The notes below the pieces were generated by a model. The model saw only the letters and a program-made list of their open reading frames with translations, ran no database searches and had not been told where the DNA came from. The translations under genes and the position numbers were made by a program. This document shows positions 1 to 55,908 of a stretch of DNA of 64,000 nt, in pieces. This DNA is from Azolla caroliniana (lineage: Eukaryota; Plantae; Polypodiophyta): assembly GCA_043228905.1 (NCBI GenBank), contig JBHGNT010000016.1, positions 17,298,001 through 17,362,000 of the forward strand, written 5' to 3'. Numbering within the stretch: the first letter of the stretch is position 1; each line of letters starts with the position of its first letter.

Positions 1-1830
1 TTCATTGATAATTAGTGTGGGGGTATGGCAAGTATATCTAAGTTTAAAGATACTGGGTGAGGTGGTTTTTTTAGTTTTTTCTTTGAAGAGGAGAGTGTGT
101 CTAAGGGAGTAAGGGTGTTTTCTAAAGTTCTTTAGAATATAATGCTTGGGATAACCTCGGGCCCTAACTCTCGTAAAGAATGTCTTTGCATATTTAAGTA
201 ACCTAGGGATGTGCTTTCTCTAACCATATATCTTTTTAATTCATTCAAAACGAAACTATTTTTAACATGGAGAGGGTGATTGGAAGAATAAGGGATGTAT
301 TGATATGTATTAAGTGTTTTTTGAAAGCAATTAAAAGTGAATCTATTATTATCTAGTTTAAAAAGGGTAGTTTCGTGTAAGAAGTATGTATGGTTAGTTT
401 GATAGAGTTTTGCGTAGTGTTACTATAGAAGTTTAGGTATTCGAACAGTTGGGGTTTAGTACCAGTCCAGATGCCAAAGGCATCATCAATATACCTAGTG
501 AAATAGAAAAGGTGGGGTGATGGATTGGAATTTTCTAGATATGAGAGGAAGAGACATACGTAAACAACGGAAAAATTACTGCCCATGGCTGTTCCTTTTA
601 CCTGTTGATAATTTGGTTGTTGAAATTTAGGAAGTGGTATTCTAAAGTGAGGGTGCTAAGGGTATAAATCAAATTACTTTTTTGGTTCGAAAAGTGGGGG
701 GAAATAAGATTTTATAGGATTGAGAGTCTTAGTTTTGGTGGGATGCTAGGGTAGAGGAGTTCAACATCAAAAGAAAAAATGAAGCTATTGGGTGGTGTTA
801 TAAGTTGTTTGAAGGTTTGGACAAGAGAATGGGAGTCCCTAAGATATTGTTTTTGACATAGAAGTATAGGGAGGAGTTGATGGTGAAGCTATTTAGACGT
901 TTGTTCAAATAATGAACCATTATATGAGCAAATTGGTCTATAGCTAACGAGGGTTTTATGTACTTTTGGTAGGAAGTACATATTAGGCACTGAGGAACCT
1001 TTAGGAGGTTTGTGTAGGATAAATTGTATTTCTACGAGAGACAAGATATTAAGGTTACGGTTGACTATGTCATGTAGTCGACTTAAAAGTTCTTCTAATG
1101 GGAGACTATTAACTTTTTCATATGTAGTGATGTCAGATAAATGTTCTAGGCCTTTATCTAGGTATGTTTTTTTATCAAGGACACAAACTCCGATGTTTTT
1201 TTCCGCTGGTAGGATGATTATTTGTTTGTTTTTTCTAAGGCTGGTTAGTGCTATTTGAAGGTGTAGTGGTATTTTGGTATTAGGTAGTATATTATTATGG
1301 AGGTTTGTGGAGAGAGAGATATTGTGTTTATGGAGTATAGACTCTAATGGTGGATACTTAGTAGGAGGGTTCCAATTCGGGTTGGGTAGTTTGAAGGGAT
1401 TAGAGGGGAGGGAGTTGAAGTCTTTAAAGAAATGTTTAAGCCTCAAGGATCTACTAAGGTTTTGGTATTCTTGAAGAATGGATTGGTTAGTTGGTGGGGG
1501 GCAGGGGGGTATAAACTTAAGTCCTAGGTTTAAAAGTTTGATTTCTAATTTACTAAGGGCATAATTTGAAAGATTATGAATTTTTCTTTTTAAGATGGGA
1601 GTCGTGTTTATGGTCGGAGTAAGTGGTTTCCAAAACTTGTATCTAAACCTTTTAGTGCGTGATTTAGTGTAAGGGGAGAAGGGGTAATGGGAGTTTTTTC
1701 TACCTAGCTACATGTACGTATCACACGTTAAAGGGGACCTATCTAGTATGTCAAAGAGACGTTTACACGGGTGTAAGGCGTGCTTAAACCGTTTACTAAT
1801 TCGTTTAGCACGCCTCGTTACACGTTTTTT
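1..1830 (-). pseudogene. PLE reverse transcriptase (frameshifts and premature stops)
   Basis: Manual translation gives, in order: basic KKRVTRRAKR; IHNLSNYALSKLEIKLLNLGLKFIP; IIILPAEKNIGVCVLDK (ADK-type motif); MYFLPKVHK..RPI; FSFDVELLYPSIP; QQVKGTAMGSNFS; RYIDD; LPFL; thumb QKTLNTYQYIPYSSNHP..ELKRY..RARGYP. These match Penelope-like RTs. No GIY-YIG domain is seen within the window. Confidence 0.9.
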
Positions 1831-2078
1831 GGTTTAGACGTATAAGTTGGAGTTTTAGTTATGGGGTGACAGGGGGGTTTATATGAGTTGTGTGAGTTTG
1901 ATTTATTATATGGGTGGGTGGCAGGGGCGGATAGGTTTAAATTAGGAAAAAGAGGAGGGGTATTAGATGTAAATAGGGAGGGGTTCTTATTCATATTATG
2001 TGAAAATAAGGGGGTGGTGGCATGTGTGGAATTATTAAGAATGGAGAGGGGGTTATGGGAGGACTATGTGAAAATATT

Positions 2079-2103
2079 GGGGGGGGGGGGGGGGGGGGGG
2101 GGG
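2079..2103 (+). repeat. Poly-G tract (~25 nt; poly-Pro in the PLE upstream frame, probable frameshift site)
   Basis: Homopolymer seen directly. Confidence 0.9.
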
Positions 2104-3120
2104 TGAGGTTGGGGCTATATTAGAGATTGGGGGAGGGGTAAGACCAGAATTATACAAATTGTTGGGGGGAAATTTAGGGTGAGGATCATTACAAAAAGGG
2201 GGCATGGGGTTAAATAGGGGAATATTGGAAAGTAACGAGGGGGTATACAAAGAATTAGTAGAAAGTGTGGGGGGAGGGTTTTGAGAGTGAATGGGGTATG
2301 GGTGTGGTGGCCATGAATAAGGAAAGGGTGTTGGGATCTTGGTGTGGAAAAGGGATGGGCTATGCTGTTGCCCCAATGTACGAGGAGGGAAAGAAAATTG
2401 AGGGGGAAAGGAGGGATGAGAGGTCTCGAGGGGCTTCGTATACAGAGGAGGGCTGAGGAGCAGAGGAGGAAGGTGAGAATGGGGGAGATGGACTTTGTTG
2501 TAATCGAATGCATGACCAGAGGCCAGAACATTGTTGTAGCCCACATGTGCGTTAATCCCATCGTACTGTTGCTGGTTGTGTTGGGCCGACGAGAATCTAG
2601 GAGGTGCGGTCGATGAGTGGAGGCTATGGATCAGAGACGGGGGTGCTCCGTGTGCGGCATGTGGCCAAGGATGCGTATAGTGGTTAATGTCTTTGTTGCC
2701 GCCAAAAAGTGATGATGGTGGTGGTTGATGGAGATCTTGGGGTGGATGATTATAGTGGTTGATGTCTTTGTTGCTGCTGAAAAGTGATGATGGTGATCGT
2801 TGATGGAGATCTTGTGGTGGATGATGCGAAGGACATGTACGAAGGGAAGCATGTGTGGTAAAGTTGGAGTTCGGGTTATGGTGAGGGTAGGCCGAGTTTG
2901 TGTTCGGGCCTACCCAAATCTCGTTGGATCTATAGAAAAGTAATTTTGGGTTTCGATGGTTGAGGTTGTGAGGATACGGGTTCATGCTAACTTCATTATT
3001 ATTTATGTTGCAGATGAATTGAGGATGGTTGCGGTGGTTGGATGATGCACGGTGAATTTGTGGTGGAGGAGGCTTCAAGTTAGGGTTTGTGTTAGTGTTA
3101 GTTTTTAGGTTGTGAATTGT

Positions 3121-3222
3121 TTTAGAGTTAGGGTTAGGATTAGGGTTACGGTTGGGGTTTGTTCTCAAGTTAGGGTTAGGGTTTGTTCTCAAGTTAGGGT
3201 TAGGGTTTGTTCTCAAGTTAGG
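3121..3222 (+). repeat. 24-bp tandem repeat x3 (GTTAGGGTTAGGGTTTGTTCTCAA) plus TTAGGG-like hexamers, encoding NPNLRTNP/NP repeats
   Basis: Seen directly in the sequence and in the 2053..3396 translation. Confidence 0.85.
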
Positions 3223-3643
3223 ATTATTGTGCTGAGATGTATACTGAAATTTGTTATATTGTACTTTCTCAAAACTATCGACAACTTTTTCAATATCATC
3301 ATCTAACTCCATATCTATGTCTATCTCTCTAATATGGTGCTTGTGTGTGTTCTGAGTGTTGTCATTTATTGATTGGGCTTTATCTTTTCTTTGCATAGCA
3401 GTAGCCCTAAAGGCTTCCCTATAAGTGAATGAGAGAGCTATAGTATTACATTCTTTTAGAATATTAATCGCTAACTCTTCTTGGAAAATTTCAAGTTATT
3501 TGCTAAATGAGTTTGGGCTTGATTCGAGTTCCTCTACTTCGTCAAAACAAACATGGGCTTTTAGGAGATTAGCAATCTTGAGTATATTAGATCGCACAGT
3601 TATAGGAAAGTTACCTACTCTTTTTGTGTAGTAATGGACAAGA

Positions 3644-6600
3644 TGTTAGAAAACAGGTCCCTCCGGATGGGAAGTGAGAAGAACAGTGCTGAAGAACAGG
3701 AAACCGGATGAGGAGTACCCGGCTACGGATGACCCGGTGAGAACCGGATGATGAGTGCCCGGCAAGCGCCGGATGATGCAGGCCCGATGAAGAGTGATCA
3801 CCGGATGAAGGGACATATTTGTAAATATGTTTCTGAGAGTCCATCGGGGCTATATTTGTAAATAGCCGAAAAGTCATATTAGTATAAATATGACTTAGGG
3901 CAAACAGAGAATACAGTGTTGTTGTCATTCTTGTTGGTGCAAGACTTGAGAGCGTGTAATAGTGTATAGAGAGAGAGAGAGCGAGGAAGAGGTCGCTGCC
4001 TCTATTGTAACCGCCGCTTGAGGCGAAGATCGTGAGCACGAGGTCGTTGCCTCCGTGAGCTCGCTATTGTACATTCTGATATAGTGATAGTTTGTAGTCT
4101 GTGGGCTGCCGTGGTTTTTCCCTAGTTTGGGTTTTCCACGCTAACATCTTGTGTACTCCTCTCTCCATTGTGTCGTGCTTTCATTTCCCGTTTTCTGTGT
4201 ATGATTCTAAGCTCGGTTGTGGCTGAGCGTTGCGCATAGGGAGCATGCAGTTCCTGTCAAAGTGGAATCAGAGCGAAACGACACAGAAAATGGACGATTC
4301 GTTGGGTGGCATGTTCAAGCTCACCGGCTCCAACTATTCGGTGTGGAAGTCGAAGATGAGGGACATGCTCGTGGTTAAAGATCTTTGGTTGCCGGTTCAG
4401 TTCGGGCACAAGAGACCGGACAAAATCGACGCCACGATATGGGAGGTGATGCACATGAAGACAACGATGTACATACGGTGCTTCATCGACATGAGCCTAT
4501 ACAACAACTTCAATGAAGAGAGCAAGGCTCATGAGCTCTGGGAGAAGATCGACATTATGTTTCAAAACAAAAATGTTGTTAATCAAGTTTCGGTATTCCG
4601 GAAGCTAGTAAGACTCCGGTACCAAGATGGCTCCAGCATGGCGGAGCACATGAATGCCTTCCAGGGGCTGATCCACCAGGAAACATCATTGGAAGTACCT
4701 CTCGCCGATAAGGTACTAGCGCTACTCCTGCTCGGTTCCCTCCCGGATAGCTGGGAGACATTGGTTGTCAGTTTGGGCAACGCCGGGCCGGAAGGGAAAC
4801 AATTATCCCTAGCAAGAGTGAAGTCGAGCTTGCTAGATGAGGAGGCACGTCGGAAAGATAAGGATATGAGCTCCGACTCCAAAGCGCTCCTTACCGAATC
4901 GGAACGCGGAAGACATAGAAACCGTAGTCCCCAGAACTGGGAAAAGTCGGGGACACGATCAAAGTCAAGGGGGAGGCCTACTTGCTTCTATTGTGGCAAG
5001 GCGGGACACTTCCAAAAGAATTGTCGGCATTTCCATAAAGACAAGGAAACCGACGGTACCAATTCGAAGTGGACACCGGACCGGAACGGTAAAGACCGGA
5101 GGGGAACGGACCGGAAGGGAACGACGGCAATCGCGGCAAGTGAAGAAGAGTTGATGCTCATCACCGAGGAAAGTGAGTTAAACCTTGCCGGCGACGAGAT
5201 GACCTGGGTGGTCGACTCCGGAGCGTCGTTCCACCTTACCCCGGACCAGAAATCCTTCTCATCCTACTCAGTCATTGATCATGGCTGTGTCCGGATGGGG
5301 AATGAACGTACATGCCGAATTGTCGGCATAGGAGACGTGTGGCTGTCAACACCAACCAAATGCAAGATGCTGGTGAAGGATGTCTGACACGTTTCGGAGG
5401 TTCGTCTGAACCTGATATCAGCCGGTCGGCTAGATGATGAAGGCTACACGGGTAGCATCCGGAACGGTGTTATGAAGTTCAGCAAAGGGAGCCTGATTGT
5501 GGCTTAGGCCCGGAAGGTAAACACACTGTACTTGATGAATGCCCGATTATGTCTGGAGGAAGTGAACGTGGCATCCGACACTCCCGGTGAGTTGTGGCAC
5601 AAAAGGTTGTGTCACATGAGCGAGAAGGGGATGAAGAGGCTTGCAAACGACAACCTCATTCCAGTGAAGAACGTGCACTTGGAGAAGTGCACTGATTGTC
5701 TGGCCGGAAAGCAAAACTAGACCTCCTTCCGATCGAGGCCACCGATGAGACGTAATGCACCACTGGAGTTGGTGCATACTGATGTGTGTCAAGTGGACAC
5801 GAAGTCACATGCAAGATCGCAGTACTTCATGACGTTCTTAGATGACCATAGACGGAAGCTGTGGGCCACACCATTGAAGACGAAGGAACAAGTGCTATCC
5901 GTCTTCAAAGAGCTCCACGCGAGAGTGGAAAGAGAAACCGGTCGGAAGCTGAAGGCGGTTCGAGCAGATAACGGAGGTGAATACCGGGGGCAGTTCGAGG
6001 AGTACTGTCGCTGGAAGGGAATCCGGCTCGAATTTACCGTGCCAAAGACGCCGGAACTAAACGGGCTGGCCGAGAGGATGAACCGGACCATAATGGAGAG
6101 GGTCCGGAGTATGCTAGTGCATGCAAAACTACCCAAGGTGTTTTGGGCTAAGGCGCTGTCCACAACGACGTATGTGATAAACAGATCACCCTCAGTACCC
6201 TTGGACGGAGACACGCCACAAAGAGTCTGGACTGGTAAGGAAGTGTCCTACCGGCATCTGAAAGTATTCGGGTGTCTTGCGTATGTGCATGTAGCTAAGG
6301 ACCGGAGAGGAAAACTAGATTCGAAGACCTAGCCATGCATATTCCTTGGTTATGGTGACGATGAGTTCGGCTACCGAGTGTGGGACCTGGTCGACAAGAA
6401 GGTATTCCGGAGTCGAGATATTATCTTCATGGAGGACAAGACACTCGCCGACTGGGAGTTGGAGAAGAAGATAATGAACTCCGAGTCGATCGGTAAGGAT
6501 CGATTCTACGATGAGCAAACCCAACCGGCAAGAGACCGGTTAGCACTCGAGGAACTAGACGGTTACGGTGAGGATACCGAACTGGTAGAAGAAGAAGTAG

Positions 6601-8732
6601 AGGAAGTTGGAACCGGAACCGGCCAAGACCCCGAATCGGATTCGGATGAATATCAAATGGAGGAGCCAGTTACTGAAGCCCAAAGACGGAGATATCCTCT
6701 CAGAGAGAGAAGGCCCCCCCGAAGATTTCCGGACTCAGAGCATGTGCTGCTGACCGATGAGGGAGAGCCAGAAAGCTTCGAAGAAGCGAAGGATGACACC
6801 CACAGCCGAAAATGGTTAAGTGCCATGCAGGATGAGATGGATTCCCTACATGAGAACCATATGTACAAATTGATGGAGTTGCCGAAAGGAAAGCGGGCAC
6901 TCCAAAACAAGTGGGTGTACAAGTTGAAACCGGGAGATGCCGACAACCCCCTGAGATACAAAGCCAGGATCATGGTGAAGGGATTCCAACAGAAGAAGGG
7001 CGTGGACTTCGACGAGATATTTGCCCCGGTAGTAAAGATGACCTCCATCCAGACGGTGTTGAGTATAGTGGCAAGCATGGACCTCGAGGTAGAGCAACTA
7101 GATGTGAAGACGGCATTTCGTCACGGTGACCTCGAAGAGGAGATCTACATGCAGCAACCAGAAGGATTCACGGAGAAAGGGAAGGAGCACCTGGTTTGCC
7201 GGTTGAAGAAGAGCCTCTACGGACTGAAGCAGGCTCCCCGACAATGGTACCGAAAGTTCGACTCCTTCATGACCGATCAAGGGTACCACAAAACGCAGGC
7301 CGATCATTGCGTGTTTGTGAAGAAGTTCGAAGGAGGCGACTTCCTGATACTCCTTCTGTACGTGGTCGACATGTTGATCGTTGGACGGGACCAAGCCAAA
7401 ATACGGATGCTGAAGAAGGCTCTCAACCGGACCTTCTCAATGAAAGTCTTGGGTCCGGCAAGACAGATGTTGGGGATGCATATTATCCGGAACCGGTCAG
7501 TGAAGCATTTGTGGCTATCACAGGAGAAGTACGTGACAAAGGTGCTTCACCGGTTCAACATGTCAGATGCGAAACCGGTCAGATCGACACTCTTGGCAAA
7601 CTGCAGATTATCCGGTAGGCAAAGCCCGAAGACGAAAATAGATAAGGCAGATATGATGAAGGTTCCATATGCCTCTCCCGTCGGGGGCTTAATGTACGCA
7701 GTGGTTTGTACCCGACCGGATATAGGATACCCAGTCGGAGTGGTGAGCCGGTTTATGAGCAATCCCGGTAGGGAGCACTGGAACGCGGTCAAATGGATAC
7801 TCCGTTACTTAAAGGGCACTTCGAACATGTGTCTCCGATTCGGCTCCGGTAAACGTCAACTTGACGGTTTTACCGACTTGGACATGTCAGCTGATGTGGA
7901 TACGAGCTGGTCTACATCTAGGTACGTAATGACATATGCAGGGGGAGATGTTTCGTGGCAGTCGAGACTGCAGAAGACGGTTGCGTTGTCAACCACGGAG
8001 GCGGAGTACATGGCGGCTGTGGAAGCCGGCAAGGAAATATTATGGATGAAGGACTTCATCGGAGAGCTCGGTATCCGGCAAGATGAATACCCGCTCTATT
8101 GCTATAGTCAAAGTGCCATCCACCTTGCTAAGAATGCGGCCTACCATTCCCGGACGAAGCATATCCAACGTAGGTATCACTGGATCCGAGAAAGAGTAGA
8201 TGACCAGGAGTTCGCACTGACGAAGATCCACACGGCCGAGAACGGGTCAGATATGCTCACCAAAGTACTGACACCTGACAAGCTGGATGCATGTCGAAAG
8301 CGGGTCGGACTAGTAAGACATCCCATGCCGGAGTGAAGGGGGAGTTTGTTAGGAAACAAGTCCCTTTGGATGCGAAGTGAGAAGAACAGTGCTGAAGAAC
8401 AGGAAACCGGATGAGGAGTACGCGGCTACGGATGACCCGGTGAGAACCGGATGATGAAGACCCGGTGAGAACCGGATGAGGAGTACCCGACTACGGATGA
8501 TCCGATGAGAACCGGATGATGAGTGCCCGGCAAGCGCCGGATGATGCAGGCCCGGTGAAGAGTGATCACCAGATGAAGGGACATATTTGTAAATATGTTT
8601 CTGAGAGTCCATCGGGGCTATATTTGTAAATAGCCGAAAAGTCATATTAGTATAAATATGACTTAGGGCAAACAGAGAATACAGTGTTGTTGTCATTCTT
8701 GTTGGTGCAAGACTTGAGAGCGTGTAATAGTG

Positions 8733-8766
<34 letters not shown>

Positions 8767-9037
8767 GAGGTCGTTGCCTCTATTGTAACCGCCGCTTGAG
8801 GCGAAGATTGTGAGCACGAGGTCGTTGCCTCCGTGAGCTCACTATTGTACATTCTGATATAGTGATAGTTTGCAGTCTGTGGGCTGCCGTGGTTTTTCCC
8901 TAGTTTGGGTTTTCCACGCTAACATCCTGTGTACTCCTCTCTGCATTGTGTCGTGCTTTCATTTCCCGTTTTCTGTGTATGATTCTAAGTTCGGTTGTGG
9001 CTGAGCGTTGCGCATAGGGAGCGTGCAGTTCCTGTCA
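3644..9037 (+). mobile_element. Full-length Ty1/copia LTR retrotransposon (Tnt1/Tork-like), degenerate; family A copy 1
   Basis: LTRs at 3644-4259 and 8347-9037 (TG..CA); TSD CAAGA at 3639-3643 and 9038-9042; PBS TGGAATCAGAGC (tRNA-iMet type, one mismatch) at 4263; PPT GAAGGGGGAG before 8347; gag-CCHC-PR-IN-RT-RH order. Confidence 0.97.
4289..8336 (+). pseudogene. Copia gag-pol polyprotein with in-frame stops (~5385, 5505, 5718, 6330)
   Basis: Motifs CFYCGKAGHFQKNC, WVVDSGAS, LWHKRLCH, VHTDVC..ADNGGEY..NGLAERMNRT, YVVD (YVDD variant) and TEAEY..SDMLTK. Confidence 0.95.
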
Positions 9038-9678
9038 CAAGACTATCTAAATGCTTAACATATGTGCTAGTGAGGTCTTTACTATATTGTGTTGTGATGG
9101 AAGTAAACCCTAGTTGTAGGCTTTTATTAATATCTTCCTACTCAATAATTAGTCTAGAGGGGTAGATTCTCAAGCTATGAGGGGCTATATTTTGAGAATT
9201 TAGGTTTGACATACGAGTGTATGTCTATTTAGCTTTTTCTGCTTTTCGATAGAGGTTTTTAAACTCTTCGATTATCCTACACTTATAATCTTCAAAGTGT
9301 TGGGAAATTAGCGGTGATTCATTGGAGATTACTTGGGTACTAGTAGTTTTTGGAGGGGTTGGAGTAGTTGAAACTATTATAGCTTGTGGTCTTTTAGTTG
9401 GATGTTTGTTGGCGCTTCTAGGTTTCATAGGAGTGGGTGTGGTGGAATTAGCCGCTGCAAAAGTCATCATCTGTTGTGGAGGGAACTCAGCATTGAATGG
9501 TGATTCGATGTGAGTCGAAGTATCACTATTATGGGTTCCAAACTCCGATGATAAGCCCTCCATAGAAAATACGATCTAGCCTTTTTTGTTATTAACCGGT
9601 CGGTTGTAGCAAGGAGTGCGGGCGACTTTGTGATATGGTAGATAATGTCATAGGAAAAGAAGATATTCTGAGCATAGA

Positions 9679-9681
<3 letters not shown>

Positions 9682-9717
<36 letters not shown>
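9682..9717 (+). repeat. (GA)n microsatellite, i.e. (CT)n in the PLE leader between ribozyme and ATG
   Basis: Seen directly. Confidence 0.9.
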
Positions 9718-9720
<3 letters not shown>

Positions 9721-9741
9721 TTTGATTAAAATTAAAGGAAA

Positions 9742-9796
9742 GACCTTATGTAGCAAACTAGTTTCGCTCGCTTAGAGCTCATCAGTGCAAAAGGTC
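9742..9796 (-). ncRNA. Minimal type I hammerhead ribozyme
   Basis: Minus-strand RNA reads GACCUU-UU-GCA-CUGAUGA-GCUC-UAAGC-GAGC-GAAA-C-UA-G-U-U|UGC-UACAU-AAGGUC. It has an intact catalytic core, a 4-bp stem II, a stem I of 3+6 bp with an internal loop, and a palindromic stem III region AAACUAGUUU. Confidence 0.9.
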
Positions 9797-11485
9797 ATGT
9801 AAATACAAAAGGTGGTTTATATAGGATGTTGAGAATGGTAAAGGGAGGGGAAAGAGGGAGTGGGGTGTAATAAGAGTGTAAATAGATGGAGGGCTGTAAG
9901 GATTTAAGGTGGAAGATCTTGATGATAGAGGGGGTGGTGATAAAGGGGAAAATGAGTTGGTGATAGGAAGATTGATAGGGTGATAAGACATATGAGTGAG
10001 TGATATAGGGTGATAAGGGGAAATGAATGAGTGATAGGGTATGTAATTATAAGTACGTAAACATAAGATGGTGAGAAAGTGAAAAGAAAAGAAGGGAATA
10101 AGAAGGGAAAGGAAGGAAAAGAAAAAGGAAGTTAGTAAGAGGTGGTGGGGAGAAGGTTTGAGGGAAAAGAGGGAGTAGAAAAAGGTAGTGAGAGGTATAG
10201 GGGAGGGGGAAGGGAGAAAAAAGGGAGAGAGAGAGAGAGAGAGAGAAAAGGAATGAGTGAGATATAAAATAGTAGTAAGGGGGAGGGGGCTGATGACAGT
10301 GACGTACGTGATTAATAGATCACCCTTCGCACCCTTGGAAGGAGACACACCACAGAGAGTATGGACCAGTAAAGACGTGTCTTACCGGCATCTGAAGGTG
10401 TTCGGGTGGCTCACTTATGTGCATGTTGCAAAGGACAAGAGAGAAAACTTGGATCCAAAGTCCAGGCCATGCATATTCCTCGGATATGGCGATGATGAGT
10501 TTGGCTACCGTGTGTGGGACTTGGTCGACAAGAAGGTCTTCAGGAGTCGAGACATAGTCTTCGTTGAAGACAAGACTATTGCCGACCGGGAGTCAAAGAG
10601 GAAGATAGTGCAGTCCGGGCCGACAAACAAAGATTAGTTGAAGGACACAAGGACTTACCCGGTCGGAAACCGGATGTTAACTGGTAACTGGATGACACTC
10701 CACGAACCGGACGGATTCAGACAAGAAACCAAACCGACCAAAGAAGAAGAAGAAGAAGAAGAAGAAGACACCGAAAACGGACAAGATCCTGAATCATATT
10801 CGGATGAAGAACAAACGGAGGAACTGGTAATTGAAGAACAAGGATGGAGATACCCTCTCAAAGAGAGAAGAGCTCCCGAGAGATTTCCGGATGCAGAGCA
10901 CGTATTGATGAACGATGAGGGGGAGCCAGAAAACTTCGAAGAAGCAAAGAAAGACACCCACAACGGCAAGTGGTTGAGTGCCATGTAGGACTAGATGGAT
11001 TCCCTTCATGAGAACCACAGATACAAACTAACAGAGTTGCCAAAAGGAAAGAGGACACTTCAGAACAAGTTGTCGCGACCCAATCTTCGAAGACAAGGTC
11101 GATTTGGAAGAAAAGAAGATAATAACAAACGAGAAGACGTTTACAAGACAAAAATACAAGAATTTCTATTACCGGAAACCGAGATTACAAGGTTGCTGAA
11201 GACTGGTGTTGAACCGGAATGGTTCAACACTAAGCAGATCTTCGACTTATATATTGTACATCAGAATGTGCATGATCGCCATTTGGCATACATGCTGTGC
11301 GCCACTTGGTGTACAGGGTGCATGCCATTTGGCGGTCATTTAATGTGTCTAGTACTTTAGAGTTCTTGAATAATAATAATATGAAAATGCATTCATTAAT
11401 GAAAATGAGTTGGTGCAATGGCTGAAGTGTAAGACCATTGTTTGAAGGTCACAAGTTCGAACCTTGATATTCACATTTTGTGACA

Positions 11486-43700: not shown

Positions 43701-45810
43701 ATAGACCATTTTACACACTTACAACTCTGCCTGGAAAGTTGCCGCAGCACACGCTTAAGCTTGAATCCCGCGAAATGTGCTTTCGGCGTGACCAGCGGGA
43801 CTCTCTTAGGCCATATAGTCAGCAAGGAGGGAATAACAGTTGATCCGAACAAGATCTCCGCGATTACACAAGCCAAAACTCCGACAAACGCCAAATCGCT
43901 CAGCCGGTTTTTAGGACAAATACGGTGGCATAGTCGGATGATGCGGTATATGGCGAACTTCGCCACGCCGTTACATGTTGTCGTACATCGGACTCCTTTC
44001 CAATGGACTGCAACGGAGGATAAGGCCTATGAGGCACTTAAGATAATGCTCACACAGGCCCCCGTCGTACAACCACCAGTTTGGGCGAAGCCATTCCACG
44101 TGTTCGTCGATGCCTCAGACATAGCAATAGGAAGTGCACTAATGCAGCTCACTGAACCAAACTGGTACCGGCCAGTATACTACGCTAGTCGCATATTATT
44201 AACTGCAGAGCGTAACTATTCCACAACGGAGCGGGAGGCGCTAGGGATGATCTATAGCATCAATAAATTCCGGCATTATTTACTAGGAAGGAAATTCACG
44301 TTCCACGTGGATCATTCGGCGCTGCTGTATTTGGTGGATGCTGCTGCTCCAAGAATTTGATTTCGTAATCCAGCACTGACCAGGGATGCAACACGCAGTG
44401 GCAAATTTTTTGAGCAGACTCGAGAATGGAGAAACAATACAGAAATATGACGACGATTTTCCGGATGCCGACATCCTGCGGGTAGCAGCACTAGCAGAAA
44501 GAATGGAATCGACCTTTCCGGACCGGTGGCTTATGGAAATGACGTACTTTTTGACTACGGGTCTGCCTCCACCACAATTATGCACAGACTAGAAGAAACA
44601 ACTAGCCGTCTGAAGCCGTCACTTCTGCCTCGTCGAGGGCATTTTATATCACAAAGGAAGTGACGGCATTTGGCGACGTGGGGTACGTCAGGATGAGAAG
44701 GAAGCAGTTTTACGGGAGGCACACTGCGGCACGGTAGGCGGCCATTACGCGGGCGATGTTATAGCCCGGAAAGTATGGCATGCGGGCTTATGGTGGCCAA
44801 CAACGCAGAAGGACGCAACCGAGTATTGTAGAAAGTGTGATTTGTGTCAACGGATGGGCCAACCCGCGGAGGGCGCAAGGATGCCACACTAGCCCGTATT
44901 ACCGCTAGACCCCTTCCAAAAGTGGGAATTGGATTTTGTGGGCCCCTTCACACTGACGGCAGCTCGTACGGGCAATAAATACATATTGGTAGCCACGGAT
45001 TATTGCACCAAGTGGGTAGAAGCAAGGGCACTACGTGAAAATACGGCAGCCATCACAACTAGATTCCTTTACGAGCAAATCTGGTACCTGTTTGGCTGTT
45101 TGATTGACCTTATTAGTGACCAAGGGAGTCACTTTCTCAATATGGTGGTTCGGGAACTAACACATCATTACGCCGTAGTCCATAAGAAGAGTACGCCATA
45201 TTATCCGTAGGCGAATGGGTTAGCAGAATACAACAACAAGACGTTGCAGACCATTTTGAAGAAAATCTTCAATGAAAATAGAACGGACTGGGATACCAAA
45301 TTACAGAGTGCGTTATGGGCGTACAGAACCAGCTACAAAACAAGCATATAGTCAACACCGTTTCGATTAGCATTTGGGCTAGAGGTTCTGATGCTGGTCG
45401 AATTTCAGGTACCCAGTTTGCGAATTCAGGTACGGAACCGACTATCAAGAGCCAAGTCGGAGGAGGTACGGCTCCACCAACTCCTCGAACTCGGGGAAAA
45501 ACGCGTACACAACATGGCTATGTTGGAGCAGGAACAACGACCGCGTAAAGCATTTGTGGATCCACATCGGAACGCAAGGGAAAAGGAGTTCGCCGTGGGT
45601 CGAGCGATGCTGGTTTTCCAAACTCGCATGGGCCATATGCTAGGGAAATTACAATTCCGCTCGATCAGGCCATACTGGATAATTGGAGCGGAACAAGGCA
45701 CGTTCCAACTAGGTACGCTGGCCGGGGAAGTAGTACGGCAAAAGGTGAATGGGTTTCGGCTCAAACCTTACCTAGGCCCTACATCACCTAACCCATTCAC
45801 CGCCGAATAG
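40701..45810 (+). pseudogene. Athila-like gag-pol
   Basis: Fragmented ORFs from 40789..41115 to 45391..45810 carrying the motifs listed for the element. Confidence 0.9.
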
Positions 45811-47616
45811 GACAGAGCCGGAGAACCTACAGTGTAAATGGACGGCCCCACTTGTACCATAATGTAAAAATAGGTTGTAGATAACCGTTACTGGATAATT
45901 GGAGCGGAACAAGGCACGTTCCAACTAGGTACGCTGGCCGGGAAAGTAGTACGGCAAAATGTGAATGGGTTTCGGCTCAAACCTTACCTAGGCCCTACAT
46001 CACCTAACCCATTCACCGCCGAATAGGACAAAGCCGGAGAACCTACAGTGTAAATGGACGGCCCCACTTGTACCATAATGTAAAAATAGGTTGTAGATAA
46101 CCGTTACTGGATAATTGGAGCGGAACAAGGCACGTTCCAACTAGGTACGCTGGCCGGGGAAGTAATACGGCAAAAGGTGAATGGGTTTCGGCTCAAACCT
46201 TACCTAGGCCCTACATCACCTAACCCATTCACCGCCGAATAGGACAGAGCCAGAGAACCTACAGTGTAAATGGACGGCCCCACTTGTACCATAATGTAAA
46301 AATAGGTTGTAGATAACCGTTACTGGATAATTGGAGCGGAACAAGGCACGTTCCAACTAGGTACGCTGGCCGGGGAAGTAGTACGGCAAAAGGTGAATGG
46401 GTTTCGGCTCAAACCTTACCTAGGCCCTACATCACCTAACCCATTCACCGCCGAATAGGACAGAGCCGGAGAACCTACAGTGTAAATGGACGGCCCCACT
46501 TGTACCATAATGTAAAAATAGGTTGTAGATAACCGTTACTGGATAATTGGAGCGGAACAAGGCACGTTCCAACTAGGTACGCTGGCCGGGGAAGTAGTAC
46601 GGCAAAAGGTGAATGGGTTTCGGCTCAAACCTTACCTAGGCCCTACATCACCTAACCCATTCACCGCCGAATAGGACAGAGCCGGAGAACCTACAGTGTA
46701 AATGGACGGCCCCACTTGTACCATAATGTAAAAATAGGTTGTAGATAACCGTTACTGGATAATTGGAGCGGAACAAGGCACGTTCCAACTAGGTACGCTG
46801 GCCGGGGAAGTAGTACGGCAAAAGGTGAATGGGTTTCGGCTCAAACCTTACCTAGGCCCTACATCACCTAACCCATTCACCGCCGAATAGGACAGAGCCG
46901 GAGAACCTACAGTGTAAATGGACGGCCCCACTTGTACCATAATGTAAAAATAGGTTGTAGATAACCGTTACTGGATAATTGGAGCGGAACAAGGCACGTT
47001 CCAACTAGGTACGCTGGCCGGGGAAGTAGTACGGCAAAAGGTGAATGGGTTTCGGTTCAAACCTTACCTAGGCCCTACATCACCTAACCCATTCACCACC
47101 GAATAGGACAGAGCCGGAGAACCTACAGTGTAAATGGACGGCCCCACTTGTACCATAATGTAAAAATAGGTTGTAGATAACCGTTACTGGATAATTGGAG
47201 CGGAACAAGGCACGTTCCAACTAGGTACGCTGGCCGGGGAAGTAGTACGGCAAAAGGTGAATGGGTTTCGGCTCAAACCTTACCTAGGCCCTACATCACC
47301 TAACCCATTCACCGCCGAATAGGACAGAGCCGGAGAACCTACAGTGTAAATGGACGGCCCCACTTGTACCATAATGTAAAAATAGGTTGTAGATAACCGT
47401 TACTATATAATTGGAGCGGAACAAGGCACGTTCCAACTAGGTACGCTGGCCGGGGAAGTAGTACGGCAAAAGGTGAATGGGTTTCGGCTCAAACCTTACC
47501 TAGGCCCTACATCACCTAAACCATTCACCGCCGAATAGGACAGAGCCGGAGAACCTACAGTGTAAATGGACGGCCCCACTTGTACCATAATGTAAAAATA
47601 GGTTGTAGATAACCGT
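45673..47616 (+). repeat. Tandem array, 9 x 216 bp, covering the integrase C-terminus and start of the 3' region
   Basis: Unit TACTGGATAATTGGAGCGG...TAGATAACCGT starts at 45673, 45889, 46105, 46321, 46537, 46753, 46969, 47185 and 47401, with only a few substitutions per unit. Confidence 0.97.
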
Positions 47617-48813
47617 TACGAAAGAAAAAAAGAAAAAAAAGAGAAGATAGTGACTATTTAAACGACTAAAGGCATGCACAAACTCATAGTTCAAGAACAC
47701 ACGACACTACGATGGCTCACCACCCAATGAACCCTAAGCCACAAAAGGAAGGAAACAGAAACCCATCTTCTAGCTATCAACATTCTCATCGCTCCTCCCC
47801 CTCACCTTCTCCTCCATCCTATCACAGAGCTTCAGCCCACCGCAACCACCGGTCTCCTTCCCACGAACCCCTCGGCGATGCCAATCTTCATATCTACTGC
47901 CCTACGTCGATGGCTCGTGGAGAAACGCCTGGATGGGTACATCCGGGTCGCAGAAGCACCCCCACACCCGGATGCCATGGACATCGCCAGGAAGCTTAAA
48001 ATCAACACGGTCCCAACTCCTCCATCCGGAAGAAGTTGGACTTGTCATCGCTAGGCGAAAGGCATTTCGAAATACCTCTTGAAGAGGCGTTGCAGCGATA
48101 TTTCGGACCATATTCCTCCTCCGCCAAGGCCTATAGAACGAAGCAGATTCCATATCCCTTCTTCCATGAAGTTGCCAAGTTCCTGCTAGAAGTCAGCTGC
48201 GTACATGTCAAGGCATATAGGATGCCCAAGCAGAAGGCGGGCATCATTATCGATACCTTTGAAGGGCGTGCAGTCGATTGGGGGCTCATCATAGGGCTTG
48301 CGTTAAGGGAAGGCTTGCATGCATATCAGGCAAGCAAAAGCCTCAGGCCGATCATACAATAGTACCTTACGGTACTATTCCCACCCCGAGGCCTGTCGGC
48401 ACCGCAACCCAGCCGACCCAAGCCCCCGCCCCGATTCGCGAAGCGCAGGTTTGCGGAGTTAGCGGCCCTAGAGTGGGAAGAGGAACCCCAACTCGTCCAC
48501 CCAGACCCGAGCACAACACCTACCGACCAGCCGGACACACGGGCAATGCAGGAGGAACAACTGGCACGTTTCGTGGAAGCAGCCCTAGAGCCAGACACCG
48601 AAACACAGCAGGATAGCCCCAGACCGAAACGGCGTAGATTGGACAAGAAAGATGGGCGGGGGTTGGTCAAAGATGTCCCCACGGCGACAAAGACACCGAC
48701 CGAAGGCGATGGCTCCGTAGCTATGGAACCCAATACCACCTTCTAAATCATCGGGGAGCCACGGCCGATCATTACGACCCAGTCCCAACGAGGGAAAGCC
48801 GTATTGACGGCAG

Positions 48814-50442: not shown

Positions 50443-53400
50443 TGTTGGGATTTCGGTCCCTCCGGATGGGATGTCCGGAGATGAATGACGGCAAGCCCAG
50501 TTGCGGTTACGGAGCCGGATGACGAAGACCCTGGCTACGGAGCCGGATGACGAAGACCCTGGCTACGGAGCCGGATGATGAATACCCCGGCTACGGAGCC
50601 GGATGACGAAGACCCTGGCTACGGAGCCGGATGATGAATACCCCGGCTACGGAGCCGGATGACGAATGTACCCGGAGAGAGATCCGGATGCGGGGACATA
50701 TTTGTGAATATATTTGCCAAGAGCCCTTGAGGCTATATTTGTAAATAGCCCGAAAGTCATATGTGTATAAATATGACTTAGGGCAAACAGTTTGATGTTG
50801 TTGCTCACTTTCTGTTTTGACTGAGAGGAAGCGAAGTGAGAGCAGCCGAGAGAGAGAGAGAGAGAGAGAAAGAGGAAGGAAGAGGTCGACGCCTCTGTGT
50901 AATACCGCCGCCTGTGGCGAGGACAGCGAGCTCAAGGTAGTCGCCTTGCAGCTCGCCATTGTACATTCCCCGCGTATAGGGATAGTTGGAGTCTTGCACT
51001 CCCGTGGTTTTTTCCCATTTAGGGTTTTCCACGTAAAACATCCAGTGTACACTTCTCTCCATTGTTTTCGTGCATTCTTGTATTTCCCGCTTTCTGTGAA
51101 TCGAACCTGTTCCTCGGTTGTGGCCGAGCGCTGTTTTAGCAACAGTTGGTATCAGAGCGACGGTAACACAGAAAATGGAAGGCGGCGGTAGTGGGCCTCC
51201 GGGCATGATGGTGTTGAACTCACAGAACTACGCCGACTGGAAGATAAAGATGGAAGACCTTCTCATCGTCCGAGACCTGTATGAACCGATCGACAATGCC
51301 GAGATACCCAAGGGGGTAATAGAGTCGGAGTGGAAGCTCCTGAACCGGAAAGCCGTAGCGACAATCCGGCAATATGTCGATGTAAGCGTTCTACAACATG
51401 TGGCGAACGACACCAATGCATATGAGATGTGGAAGAAGCTGTCGGGCCTCTACGAGAGGAAGAATGCGTTGAACCGGACCTCCCTGATGAGGAAGATAGT
51501 GAACCTCAAGTACCGGGACGGCGAGAATATGGTGGAACACGTGAGCACGTTCATGGGATTCGTGAACCAGCTTGCGGCGATCAAGTTCCCGTTGGAGGAT
51601 GCAATGCAAGCCATCATTCTGATGTGTACATTGCCGGACAGCTGGGAGAACTTGGTGGTGACTCTCAGCACCTCCTGCACCGAAGATAACTTGTCCCTAC
51701 AAACGGTAAAGACAAGTATTTTGAACGAAGAAGCGCGTCGAAGAGATAAAGAACCGGCCTCCGACTCGAAGGCGTTGGTTACCGAATCGGAACGGGGAAG
51801 ACAATGGAACCGGAGTCCGCAAAGACGGGAGAAGTCGGGGACCCGGTCGCAGTCAAGAGGAAGACCCACATGCTTCCACTGTGGGAAGCCGGGGCACTTC
51901 CGGAAGAATTGTCGGCATTACCGAAAAGACAACGGAGCCGACGACACCGATTCGAAGAAGTCACCGGAGAGAAACGGTGCATACCGGGGAGCCACGGACC
52001 GGAGAGGTCCGGATCGGCGAGGGCAGGACCGGAAAGGAACGACGGCACTCGCGGCAAGTGAAGAGGAGATCATGCTCATCACCGAAGAAGGTGAACTAAA
52101 CACTGCCGGCGATGAGACGACCTGGGTGGTCGATTCTGGAGCGTCATTCCACCTGACCCCGGAGAGAAGATACTTCTCATCCTACACAGCCGGTGAACAT
52201 GGCTGCGTTCGGATGGGAAATGAAGGTACGTGCCGGATTGCCGGCATAGGAGACGTGTGGTTGACAACCCCGACCGGATGCAAAATGCTGCTGAAGGATG
52301 TCTGACACGTTCCGGAGGTTCGATTGAACCTGATTTTGGTCGGGAGGCTAGACGATGAAGGCTACACAGGTAGCATCCGGAACGGCGTAATGAAGTTCAG
52401 CAAGGGGAGCCTGATAGTGGCTCGGGCCCGGAAAGACAACACACTGTACCTAATGAATGCCCGGTTATGTCCGGAAGAGCTGAATGTGGCAGCCGACACT
52501 GCCGGTGAGCTGTGGCACAAGAGACTGTGCCACATGAGTGAGAAGGGGATGAAGAGGCTTGCAGAAGACAACGTTATTCCAGTGAAGCATGTGCACCTGG
52601 AGAGGTGCACCGATTGCCTGGCCGGTAAGCAGAACCGAACCTCCTTCCACTCAAGGCCACCGACGAGACGTAGCGCACCATTGGAGTTGGTGCACACTGA
52701 TGTGTGTCAGGTAGAAACGAAGTCACATGGCGGAGCCCAGTACTTCGTGACTTTCATTGATGATCACAGCCGGAAGCTGTGGACGGCACCGTTGAAGACA
52801 AAGGACCAAGTGTTGTCCGTCTTCAAAGAACTCCACGCGAGAGTGGAAAGAGAATCCGGCAAGAAGCTGAAAGCGATACGAGCGGATAACGGAGGTGAAT
52901 ACCGGGGGCAGTTCGCGGAGTACTGTCACTCGAAGGGAATCCGGCTCGAGTTTACTGTGCCGAAGACGCCGGAACTGAACGGGCTGGCCGAGAGGATGAA
53001 CCGGACCATAATGGAGAGGGTCCGGAGTATGCTGGCGCATGCGGAATTACCCAAGGGGTTTTGGGCTGAGGCGATGTCGACGGCGACATACGTGATAAAT
53101 AGATCACCCTCAGTACCTTTGGACGGAGACACGCCGCAGAGAGTGTGGACCGGTAGGGAAGTGTCCTACCGGCACCTGAAGGTGTTCGGGTGCCTCGCAT
53201 ATGTGCATGTGGCTAAGGACCGGAGAGGAAAGCTAGATCCAAAGACCCGGCCATGCATATTCCTCGGTTACGGCGATGACGAGTTCGGCTACCGAGTATG
53301 GGACCCGGTCGACAAGAAGATATTCCGGAGTCGTGATATCATCTTCATGGAGAACAAGACACTCGCCGACTGGGAGTCGGAGAAGAAGATGAAGAGCTCC

Positions 53401-55908
53401 AAGACGACCGGTGAGGATCAACTCTACGAGGAGCAGTCCCAACCGGCAAGGGACCGGTTAGCACTCGAGGATCCGGCCGAAGACGGTGAAGAAACAGAAC
53501 CGGCCGAAGAAGATGAAAATGATACCGGAACCGGCCCCGATCCCGAAATGGATTCGGATGAAGAAGAATCGGAAGAACCAGTTACCGAAGCTCCAGAACG
53601 GAGATATCCTCTAAGAGAGAGAAGGGCCCCCCGGAGATTTCCGGAACCAGAGCACGTGCTGCTAACCGACGAAGGGGAGCCGGAGAGCTTTGAAGAAGCA
53701 AAGCATGACACCCAGAGCCGCAGGTGGTTGAGTGCCATGCAGGACGAGATGGATTCCCTGCATGAGAACCACACATATGAACTTGTGGAGTTGCCGAAAG
53801 GAAAGCGGGCACTTCGAAACAAGTGTGTGTTCAAGCTGAAACCGGGAGATGCCGGAAACCCCCCGAGATACAAAGCCAGGATCGTGGTGAAGGGGTTCCA
53901 GCAGAAGAAGGGCGTCGACTTCGACGAGATATTTGCCCCGGTAGTGAAGATGACCTCCATCCGGACGGTGCTGAGCATAGCGGCAAGTATGGACCTCGAG
54001 GTAGAACAGATGGACGTGAAGACGGCATTCCTTCACGGTGACCTCGAAGAAGAGATCTACATGCAGCAACCGGAAGGATTCGAGAAGAAAGGGAAGGAGC
54101 ACCTGGTATGCCGGTTGAAGAAGAGCCTTTACGGACTGAAGCAGGCTCCCCGACAATGGTACCGGAAGTTCGACTCCTTCATGACCGACGAAGGGTACCA
54201 CAAAACGCAGTCTGATCACTGCGTGTTTGTGAAGAAGTTCGAAGGAGGAGACTCTCTAATACTCCTCCTGTACGTGGACGACATGTTGATCGTCGGACGG
54301 GACCAGGTCAAGATACGGATGCTGAAGAGGGCGCTTCACCGAACCTTCTCAATGAAGGACCTGGGTCCGGCGAGGCAAATACTGGGGATGCACATCATCC
54401 GGGACCGGAGGAAGAAGCAGTTGTGGCTGTCACAGGAAAAGTACGTGACAAAGGTGCTTCACCGGTTCAACATGACGGAAGCAAGACCGGTCGGGTCAAC
54501 CCTACCGGCAAACTGCAGGTTGTCCAGCAAGCAAAGCCCCAAGACAAAGGCTGAGAAGGAGGACATGATGAAAGTGCCATATGCCTCTGCCGTCGGAAGC
54601 TTGATGTACGCAATGGTGTGTACAAGACCGGACATTGGATATGCAGTTGGAGTGGTGAGCCGGTACATGAGCAATCCCGGCAAAGAGCACTGGAACGCGA
54701 TCAAGTGGATACTCCGATACCTGAAGGGCACGGCAAACGTGAGCCTCCGATTCGGCTCCGGTAAGCCCGAACTCGACGGCTTTACCGATTCGGATTTGTC
54801 GGCTGATGCAGATACTAGCCGGTCCACATCAGGGTATGTGATGACGTATGCAGGTGGAGCTGTTTCGTGGCAGTCGAGGCTGCAGAAGACGGTTGCGCTG
54901 TCAACCACGGAGGCGGAGTACATGGCGGCTGTTGAAGCCGGCAAGGAAATAATATGGATGAAGGACTTCATTAGAGAGCTCGGTATCCGGCAGGAGGAGT
55001 ACCGACTCTACTGCGACAGTCAGAGTGCCATCCACCTTGCGAAGAACGCGGCCTACCATTCCCGGACGAAACACATCCAGCATAGATACCACTGGATCCG
55101 GGAGAGGATAGAAGACGAGGAGTTCGTGCTGACGAAGATCCACACGGACGAGAACGGGTCGGATATGCTGACCAAGGTGCTCACACCCGACAAGCTGGAA
55201 GCATGCCGGAAGAGGATCGGGTTGGAGAGACATCCCATGCCGAAGTGAAGGGGGAGTTTGTTGGGATTTCGGTCCCTCCGGATGGGATGTCCGGAGATGA
55301 ATGACGGCAAGCCCGGTTGCGGTTACGGAGCCGGATGACGAAGACCCTGGCTACGGAGCCGGATGACGAAGACCCTGGCTACGGAGCCGGATGATGAATA
55401 CCCCGGCTACGGAGCCGGATGACGAATGTACCCGGAGAGAGATCCGGATGCGGGGACATATTTGTGAATATATTTGCCAAGAGCCCTTGAGGCTATATTT
55501 GTAAATAGCCCGAAAGTCATATGTGTATAAATATGACTTAGGGCAAACAGTTTGATGTTGTTGCTCACTTTCTGTTTTGACTGAGAGGAAGCGAAGTGAG
55601 AGCAGCCGAGAGAGAGTGAGAGAGAGAGAGAGAAAGAGGAAGGAAGAGGTCGACGCCTCTGTGTAATACCGCCGCCTGTGGCGAGGACAGCGAGCTCAAG
55701 GTAGTCGCCTTGCAGCTCGCCATTGTACATTCCCCGCGTATAGGGATAGTTGGAGTCTTGCACTCCCGTGGTTTTTTCCCATTTAGGGTTTTCCACGTAA
55801 AACATCCAGTGTACACTTCTCTCCATTGTTTTCGTGCATTCTTGTATTTCCCGCTTTCTGTGAATCGAACCTGTTCCTCGGTTGTGGCCGAGCGCTGTTT
55901 TAGCAACA
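50443..55908 (+). mobile_element. Young full-length Ty1/copia (Tnt1/Tork-like); family A copy 2
   Basis: Near-identical LTRs at 50443-51144 and 55259-55908; TSD GGATG; PBS TGGTATCAGAGC at 51147; PPT GAAGGGGGAG. Confidence 0.98.
51175..55248 (+). CDS. Copia gag-pol polyprotein, single frame with one in-frame TGA at 52303-52305
   Basis: ORFs 51118..52305 and 52324..55248 are in the same frame. CCHC, DSG, HHCC, DDE, YVDD and RH motifs are all intact. Confidence 0.85.

What the first reader, a model, noticed from the sequence alone, without database searches (positions are those of the whole stretch)
9742..9796. Minimal type I hammerhead ribozyme with palindromic stem III upstream of the PLE ORF
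Seen: complete CUGAUGA/GAAA core, stem II GCUC/GAGC, stem I GCA/UGC plus GACCUU/AAGGUC, and predicted cleavage after GUU between 9756 and 9755. Stem III is almost absent but lies in the perfect palindrome AAACUAGUUU. Known: PLE-associated minimal hammerheads have this form and are thought to cleave as dimers. Inference: it would process the element RNA about 190 nt before the ATG, implying an uncapped transcript and a second ribozyme copy in tandem or in trans. GUU may be a decayed GUC.
Basis: partly seen in the sequence, partly recalled or inferred. Interest (0 to 1): 0.85.

Follow-up and report, generated by a model that had tools for sequence, protein, structure and literature searches.

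The report
Hammerhead in plant Penelope element end
This is a real, family-conserved hammerhead RNA motif in the repeated end of a plant Penelope-type jumping gene that lacks a DNA-cutting enzyme; it likely cuts only weakly and in pairs, which is a known kind of system, and it sits a fixed distance behind a TATA box, so the transcript probably begins at the ribozyme.

Summary
In detail: an intact type I hammerhead on the minus strand (9796-9742), predicted cut between 9756 and 9755; 0 of 300 shuffles gave the descriptor. It lies in the pseudo-LTR of a two-ORF, endonuclease-less Penelope-like element whose RT groups with Selaginella, Cryptomeria and Ginkgo proteins. This copy is dead (Copia insertion, stops, frameshifts). 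Related loci keep the core, show compensatory changes in stems I and II and place the motif between one unit's RT stop and the next unit's ORF1. GUU is not decay: 32 of 32 family loci have it, and 15 of 56 published PLE hammerheads do. An uncapped mRNA is doubtful: a TATA box lies 36-38 nt before the core in most copies, and no copy ends at the cut site. One relative (L006) runs into telomeric repeats at its own CCCTAAA stretch. Cleavage was not tested. Verdict: new member of a known kind. The TATA-ribozyme spacing and a conserved -1 frameshift signal are the testable extras.

The parts
9742..9796 (-). Type I hammerhead motif: two-part stem I, 4-bp stem II, 2-bp stem III in the ACUAGU palindrome; predicted cut 9756/9755 after GUU
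9816..9823 (-). TATA box (TATATAAA); first T 38 nt before core C3 and 27 nt before the start of stem I
   Evidence: promoter function inferred
9797..10236 (-). Upstream part of the pseudo-LTR: 3' UTR of a 5'-truncated unit; 76% identical to the RT-to-ribozyme UTR of L062; a Copia-like integrase fragment begins at 10279
9564..9741 (-). Leader between ribozyme and ORF1: (CT)18 at 9682-9717, invariant 11-nt motif at 9620-9610, small hairpin; no CCCTAAA repeats in this copy
9038..9563 (-). ORF1, 5' part (residues 1-176 of the L062 protein, 89% identical), with in-frame stops
3644..9037 (+). Ty1/Copia element inserted into ORF1; LTRs 97% identical; 5-bp target duplication
1818..3643 (-). ORF1, 3' part: helical N-terminal domain, (Asn-Pro)n tract, Pro-rich tail; frame broken near the poly-C run at 2079-2103; stop at 1820-1818
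1775..1830 (-). Predicted -1 frameshift signal: A AAA AAC at 1830-1824, ORF1 stop, hairpin 1816-1803 with 1789-1775
1..1833 (-). ORF2, PLE reverse transcriptase without GIY-YIG domain in intact relatives; here with stops and frameshifts; runs off the left edge

Best explanation
The motif is the conserved pseudo-LTR hammerhead of an endonuclease-less, two-ORF Penelope-like retroelement of a land plant; it likely cleaves only weakly, as a double hammerhead formed with the second copy one unit downstream, while most RNA likely stays uncut, capped from the adjacent TATA promoter, and serves as mRNA and template. Shown: the motif, its conservation and covariation, its place between RT stop and ORF1 in tandem units, the missing endonuclease, the fixed TATA spacing, and copies whose 3' ends lie past the cut site. 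Inferred: (1) Pol II starts at or near the 5' edge of stem I, so a unit transcript carries a ribozyme at each end; (2) the two copies pair through ACUAGU and cut after GUU in a fraction of molecules, giving unit-length RNA that may be ligated into a circle; (3) ORF1-RT is made by a -1 frameshift; (4) RT starts downstream of an intact or re-ligated ribozyme, on telomeric overhangs where the leader carries CCCUAAA repeats and at other 3' ends or breaks where it does not, and reads back through the ribozyme to rebuild the pseudo-LTR. The copy in this window is a fossil; the function is claimed for the family.
For: Core, stem II base and ACUAGU-UUGC are invariant in 16 aligned distinct family sequences while loop II and the flanks diverge. 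Outer stem I reads GACC/GGUC in 10 and GGUC/GACC in 6 of 17 distinct sequences (one has a deletion), and the fifth pair of stem II is U-A, C-G or A-U in 11 of those 16. 89.5% of cells paired against 31-43% for slid partners. Contig depth rises several-fold over the motif against its flanks because other subfamilies share it, with most differences in loop II. RT stop, UTR, ribozyme and ORF1 follow each other in L062, L036, L034, L051, L053, L023 and L072; the two ORF1 ends in L062 are only 78% alike, so it is not one collapsed unit. Intact RTs are 612-636 aa with no GIY-YIG hit in the three family members scanned and group with Selaginella, Cryptomeria and Ginkgo proteins (SH-like 100). L006 passes from its own CCCTAAA stretch into about nine telomeric repeats at the contig end, where L023 and L072 go on to the ATG. 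The slippery site and hairpin are conserved in the 9 junctions printed. PMC4209133 reports dimer dependence and low activity for the PLE hammerhead it tested in that way, and the same GAAA-C-UA-GU helix III in an Adineta Athena element.
Against: No cleavage or expression data. The predicted monomer fold pairs core bases wrongly and the pair next to the cut has probability 0.31. The double hammerhead beats two monomers by under 2 kcal/mol in 11 of 17 sequences and loses in 6; in all 17 a different dimer fold is more stable. The family rows are kin, so the GACC/GGUC swap may be one event; the stem II base and GAAACUAG were fixed by my search pattern. 5' ends of truncated copies do not pile up at the predicted start (86-550 nt upstream of the cut in the few with a visible boundary). 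This copy has no telomeric repeat and sits among LTR elements. Rfam score is far below threshold.
Confidence: 0.7

Rival explanations
1. One reading: the ribozyme efficiently cuts read-through transcripts, and the 5'-OH, uncapped product is the working mRNA, translated cap-independently from the 192-nt leader.
For: The ribozyme sits about 190-450 nt before the ORF1 ATG in all subfamilies, with an invariant 11-nt motif 53-56 nt before the ATG. Self-cleavage promoted cap-independent translation in fungal and plant reporter assays (PMC13725137, passages). Tandem arrays would give read-through RNA.
Against: A TATA box at fixed spacing points to a capped start at the ribozyme. 2-bp stem III and U17 predict slow cleavage. 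The leader motif shows no covariation (4 invariant pairs).
Confidence: 0.15
2. The fold is kept as a non-cleaving structure: a recognition or dimerisation signal for ORF1/RT at the RNA ends that supports template switching between the repeated ends, much as the R region of an LTR does.
For: No family copy ends at the cut site; 10 loci leave family homology about 15-290 nt past it. Inactive folds are predicted to be more stable. With U17 the palindrome extends to 10 bp and would pair A13 and A14. PMC4209133 leaves non-cleavage roles open.
Against: Every catalytic core base is invariant across subfamilies whose RTs differ by 25-36%, which fits selection on catalysis. Re-ligated circles would also give 3' ends past the cut.
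Confidence: 0.12
3. The match is chance, or a decayed relic with no family-level function.
For: Sub-threshold Rfam score, z -1.45, and this element copy is dead.
Against: 0 of 300 shuffles; invariance and compensatory changes across subfamilies; fixed position in the pseudo-LTR.
Confidence: 0.03

Closest known systems
Endonuclease-deficient PLEs of Selaginella moellendorffii and conifers, with type I hammerheads in their pLTRs (PMC4209133 main text; PMC9033089 Table 1 passage; Gladyshev and Arkhipova 2007 only through citing passages)
   Same: RT groups with a Selaginella protein (37%) and with Cryptomeria and Ginkgo proteins (40-42%); no GIY-YIG domain; type I hammerhead in the pLTR; tandem units; reverse-complement telomeric repeats beside the ribozyme in some subfamilies.
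   Different: A separate host lineage and a radiation of several subfamilies; invariant GUU; stem I split into 3 bp plus a variable outer stem; most subfamilies sampled lack telomeric repeats in the leader; this copy lies among LTR elements. I could not see the Selaginella ribozyme sequence (figure not held).
Athena / Terminon elements of bdelloid rotifers (PMC8557442 introduction and Fig 1 legend; PMC12477314 passage; Adineta row of Fig S3 in PMC4209133)
   Same: No endonuclease; ORF1 separable from RT by a frameshift with an RNA structure; the same C-UA-GU helix III in the Adineta element; C-rich telomeric repeats near the ribozyme.
   Different: Adineta has GUC and a longer stem II; the units here are about 5.5 kb with two ORFs, not giant multi-ORF units; no Athena RT was in my tree.
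Minimal hammerheads (min-HHR) of metazoan PLEs (PMC4209133)
   Same: 3-4 bp inner stem I, palindromic stem III region, frequent U17, predicted dimer cleavage.
   Different: min-HHRs lack helix III and often carry an extra base before stem II; here helix III has 2 bp, stem II follows CUGAUGA directly, and an outer stem I covaries.
Penelope of Drosophila virilis promoter (PMC2377424, abstract only)
   Same: [quoted passage not shown]
   Different: Reported as an internal, TATA-less promoter; here a canonical TATA box stands at a fixed distance before the ribozyme.

Membership tests
Type I hammerhead ribozyme | Conserved core CUGANGA / GAAA / NUH | tested here: met
   invariant in 16 distinct family sequences (CUGAUGA and GAAA were fixed by the search pattern, the UU after G16.2 was not)
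Type I hammerhead ribozyme | Three helices around the core, ends in stem I, supported by covariation | tested here: met
   double changes in outer stem I and the stem II extension; stem III (2 bp) never varies, so it gives no covariation evidence
Type I hammerhead ribozyme | Loop I - loop II tertiary contact of fast 'canonical' hammerheads | tested here: inconclusive
   Loop II and the stem I internal loop vary in length and sequence among subfamilies; no conserved contact is evident
Type I hammerhead ribozyme | Self-cleavage (as monomer or dimer) | not testable with these tools
   Folding energies only
Rfam Hammerhead_HH9 (RF02275) | Gathering score 52 bits | tested here: not met
   20.6 bits, E 0.021; not filed under this family
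EN-minus Penelope-like element, land-plant type | PLE-type RT related to plant EN-minus elements | tested here: met
   clade of 23 rows with Selaginella, Cryptomeria and Ginkgo proteins, SH-like 100 (FastTree, midpoint root, 59 chosen rows)
EN-minus Penelope-like element, land-plant type | No GIY-YIG endonuclease | tested here: met
   RT frames stop at 612-636 aa; no GIY-YIG in P0001, P0002, P0005, while control P0010 scores; none in two ORF1 proteins
EN-minus Penelope-like element, land-plant type | Partial tandems forming pLTRs that hold the hammerhead | tested here: met
EN-minus Penelope-like element, land-plant type | Reverse-complement telomeric repeats beside the ribozyme and attachment to telomeric tracts | tested here: inconclusive
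   Present in 5 of 32 loci (L006, L023, L072, L094, L062) and one junction into a repeat tract (L006); absent from this copy; chromosomal position not testable
EN-minus Penelope-like element, land-plant type | Optional ORF1 with coiled coil, joined by a frameshift | tested here: inconclusive
   Slippery site and hairpin conserved; ORF1 model all-helical but pLDDT 48; frameshifting not measured
Coprina clade (by name) | Monophyly with named Coprina RTs | not tested
   No named Coprina sequence came up or 44
Chlamys / PLE-X of spike mosses | CxC motif and insertion in the fingers domain | tested here: not met
   By inspection of P0001-P0008 against the description in PMC8557442 section 9: no CxC, and motif A to B' spacing like that of P0010
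Retrozyme (non-autonomous) | No protein-coding capacity | tested here: not met
   Intact ORF1 and RT in relatives

The most novel reading that the evidence does not exclude
The pseudo-LTR works like a true LTR with a ribozyme as its R region. A TATA box held 36-38 nt before the core starts Pol II inside or at the edge of stem I, so start-site choice switches the 5' ribozyme off (a start at 9788 abolishes the predicted fold, a start at 9796 or earlier keeps it), while the complete 3' copy stays intact. In addition, this endonuclease-less plant lineage has largely left the telomeres, with subfamilies that lost the CCCUAAA priming repeats spreading through the chromosomes.
Probability: 0.25. Interest if true: 0.62.

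Novelty: new member of a known kind. Interest (0 to 1): 0.3.

Why it matters
Hammerheads in PLE pseudo-LTRs are published, also for plants, so the motif itself is ordinary. What the ribozyme does for the element is still open (PMC8557442 calls it unclear). This family gives a compact test system: intact subfamilies, a sharply placed TATA box, an invariant GUU site, a conserved frameshift signal, and leaders with and without telomeric repeats. Mapping the transcript start and ends would separate the circle model from template switching and show how an element without an endonuclease inserts away from telomeres.

Tried and rejected
No whole genome is held for this window, so copy number, chromosomal position and the second ribozyme beyond the left edge could not be checked. 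No RNA holder was listed by the run search; this says nothing on expression. No second hammerhead in the window: next best hit 13.6 bits, E 0.14; the CTGATGA match at 25227 was not recovered by that model. I entered stem II one column off when building model R1 (seen) and recounted with the right register; alignment A4 was fitted to the faulty model and includes 7 matches from distant loci, so the anchored count is the cleaner one, though its 4-bp anchor pairs by construction. No relatives in viral contigs. Host group not settled by my own search: a Copia gag gave only unnamed close hits and 27% angiosperm hits. ORF1: no Pfam family, no Atlas hit, low-confidence model (no fold search run), 22 representatives at E up to 1e-10, unnamed, with most weaker hits on the Asn-Pro tract. 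The leader motif gave no covarying structure. L071 was dropped from the 3'-end count because its partner locus ends there. Rejected: decayed GUC; endonuclease-bearing PLE; PLE-X; retrozyme. Literature searches with no paper holding all terms: Penelope + fern genome + transposable elements + telomer; Penelope-like + hammerhead + TATA + pLTR; none of the 20 listed of 110 fern papers held 'Penelope'. Lin 2016, Arkhipova 2017 and Lunse 2017 are not held, so they, their supplements and Gladyshev 2007 may already describe parts of this.

Full report
Observation. Rfam finds nothing at gathering score and only a weak HH9 match (20.6 bits, E 0.021). The loose core pattern is at chance level and the folding energy is ordinary (z -1.45). 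A descriptor with core and all three stems hits once in the window and in 0 of 300 dinucleotide shuffles. A family model finds no second copy in the window.

Surroundings. The window is a nest of Copia and Gypsy elements, which points to a plant. Downstream of the ribozyme, ORF1 starts at 9563. A Copia element with 97% identical LTRs and a 5-bp target duplication interrupts it from 9037 to 3644. ORF1 ends at 1818, and a PLE-type RT runs off the left edge with stops and frameshifts. This copy cannot be active. Upstream, 9797-10236 matches the UTR that follows the RT stop in a relative, so the ribozyme sits in a pseudo-LTR made by a 5'-truncated upstream unit.

Element class. Intact relatives encode RTs of 612-636 aa, 57-86% identical to the window's longest RT frame. 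Three scanned family members have no GIY-YIG domain, while a control protein does. A profile search returns Selaginella (37%), Cryptomeria (40-42%) and Ginkgo proteins as the nearest named hits. In a FastTree tree of 59 rows that I chose from the hits, they form one clade with the family (SH-like 100). No named Coprina or Athena RT was available, so the clade name is not tested. EN-minus PLEs are listed for Selaginella and conifers (PMC9033089, passages). My own search did not fix the host group. An earlier AI note on the same genome calls it a fern; I did not verify that.

Family evidence. 32 of them, all the loci of one series of assemblies, continue with UUUGC after the fixed pattern. With the window they give 17 distinct sequences. 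The rest are mostly hammerheads with a long stem III; three loci (L014, L057, L058; two contigs) are distant PLEs with the same ACUAGU but GUC. In 16 aligned sequences the core, the base of stem II and stem III do not vary. Outer stem I swaps GACC/GGUC for GGUC/GACC in 6 of 16 anchored sequences, and the fifth pair of stem II is U-A in 5, C-G in 5, A-U in 1 and open in 5. On the model-fitted alignment 89.5% of cells pair, against 31-43% with slid partners; 10 of 16 pairs show a double change; 0 of 500 shuffles reach this. The rows are kin and that alignment includes 7 distant matches, so these are not independent events. Public contigs laid on the window show depth peaking on the motif, most differences in loop II, and only low-depth C-to-U changes at three conserved positions.

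GUU is not decay. It is present in 32 of 32 family loci, and the pattern left these letters free. In Fig S3 of PMC4209133 I count U17 in 24 and GUU in 15 of 56 rows, and the Adineta Athena row has the same C-UA-GU helix (supplement parts 1-2 of 3).

Architecture. In L062, L036, L034, L051, L053, L023 and L072 the order is RT stop, a UTR of about 240-1050 nt, ribozyme, leader, ORF1. L062 gives a unit of about 5.5 kb, and its two ORF1 ends are 78% alike, which argues for a true tandem. By this map the second ribozyme should lie about 0.77 kb left of the window. ORF1 overlaps the RT frame at A AAA AAC, followed by the ORF1 stop and a hairpin, in the 9 junctions printed and in the window; the 40 codons before the first RT methionine are conserved as protein. 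This fits -1 frameshifting (the slippery-site rule is recalled; PMC8557442 Fig 1 legend names a frameshift with pseudoknot for ORF1).

Telomeres. Five of 32 loci carry CCCTAAA repeats in the leader. L006 leaves the element at its own repeat stretch, about 10 nt before the ATG, and continues as about nine perfect repeats to the contig end, in the orientation expected for attachment to a G-rich overhang (model as in PMC8557442 and PMC12477314, passages). One contig cannot prove a chromosome end. The window copy has no such repeats, although a telomere-like insert at 9657 is seen in public contigs and in L062.

TATA box. A TATA-like element starts 36-38 nt before core C3 in 32 of 34 motif copies. 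Three of the 32 are a TTATTAA variant that I added to the pattern; of the other two, one has a deletion (32 nt) and one is cut by the contig end. The spacer sequence differs between subfamilies, and background is 10 matches in 3570 nt. With the usual plant spacing of 25-35 nt (recalled), transcription would start between 9798 and 9788, at or inside stem I. Folding says a start at 9796 or earlier keeps the stems and a start at 9788 loses them. No data here map the start, and the few visible 5' boundaries do not cluster there. The Drosophila Penelope promoter was reported as TATA-less (PMC2377424, abstract). A search for Penelope-like + hammerhead + TATA + pLTR found no paper. An unreviewed AI note reports a similar spacing in a shark; it is a lead, not support.

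Ends of copies. None of the 32 loci stops at the cut site. Ten leave family homology about 15-290 nt past it, five of them at 186-241 nt near the invariant leader motif and the ATG (blast-defined, some blurred by CT repeats). So the RNAs that were copied had an uncut or re-ligated ribozyme near their 3' end. That fits weak, dimer-dependent cleavage, with circles or homologous template switching rebuilding the pseudo-LTR. PMC4209133 (main text parts 1-2 of 4) found no monomer cleavage and low dimer cleavage for a schistosome motif and proposed circles; PMC6765202 (passages) reviews the same. Energies give only weak support: the double hammerhead is -31.8 against -30.0 kcal/mol for two monomers of the window sequence, wins in 11 of 17 sequences, and is always beaten by another dimer fold.

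Verdict. A real motif, correctly read, in a known kind of element: a new member of a known kind, interest 0.3. The fixed TATA spacing and the apparent loss of telomeric priming repeats in most subfamilies sampled are the parts worth a bench test.

Noticed in passing
window 9620-9610 (-), and L062, L036, L011, L026, L015, L021, L023: An 11-nt motif is invariant 53-56 nt before the ORF1 ATG in 8 of 8 aligned leaders that otherwise diverge, followed by a small hairpin; several copies end within about 60 nt after it. Possible RT start or translation signal; no covariation.
   Followed up: partly
window 3122-3226; ORF1 of L062, L051, L036, L034, L072: The (Asn-Pro)n tract of ORF1 is encoded by AACCCT repeats, that is telomere-like C-strand repeats inside the coding region. 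It could offer internal annealing sites for telomeric overhangs.
   Followed up: no
window 1830-1775 (-): Conserved -1 frameshift signal (A AAA AAC, stop, hairpin) joining ORF1 to RT.
   Followed up: partly
L017:2987-3306: A 257-bp tandem duplication of the pseudo-LTR end; the second ribozyme has a damaged core.
   Followed up: no
L050, L062, L036 ribozymes: A second UGCA just after the cut site allows an alternative, out-of-register stem I; the window copy differs from L050 by one base that weakens it.
   Followed up: partly
L014, L057, L058: Distant PLEs (RT 26-28% identical) from other samples with the same ACUAGU helix III but GUC and a two-frame layout; L057 and L058 are one contig with a ribozyme at each end, about 4.2 kb apart.
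   Followed up: partly
window 45673-47619: Nine 216-bp tandem copies, 99% alike, of the end of a Gypsy-like coding region; very young amplification or assembly artefact.
   Followed up: no
window 3644-9037 and 50508-56100: Two related, nearly whole Copia elements with internal tandem repeats in their LTRs.
   Followed up: no
L001-L125, about 85 loci: Most other hits to the core pattern are hammerheads with a long stem III in aquatic metagenome contigs, some with two copies about 1.25 kb apart (L028, L046).
   Followed up: no
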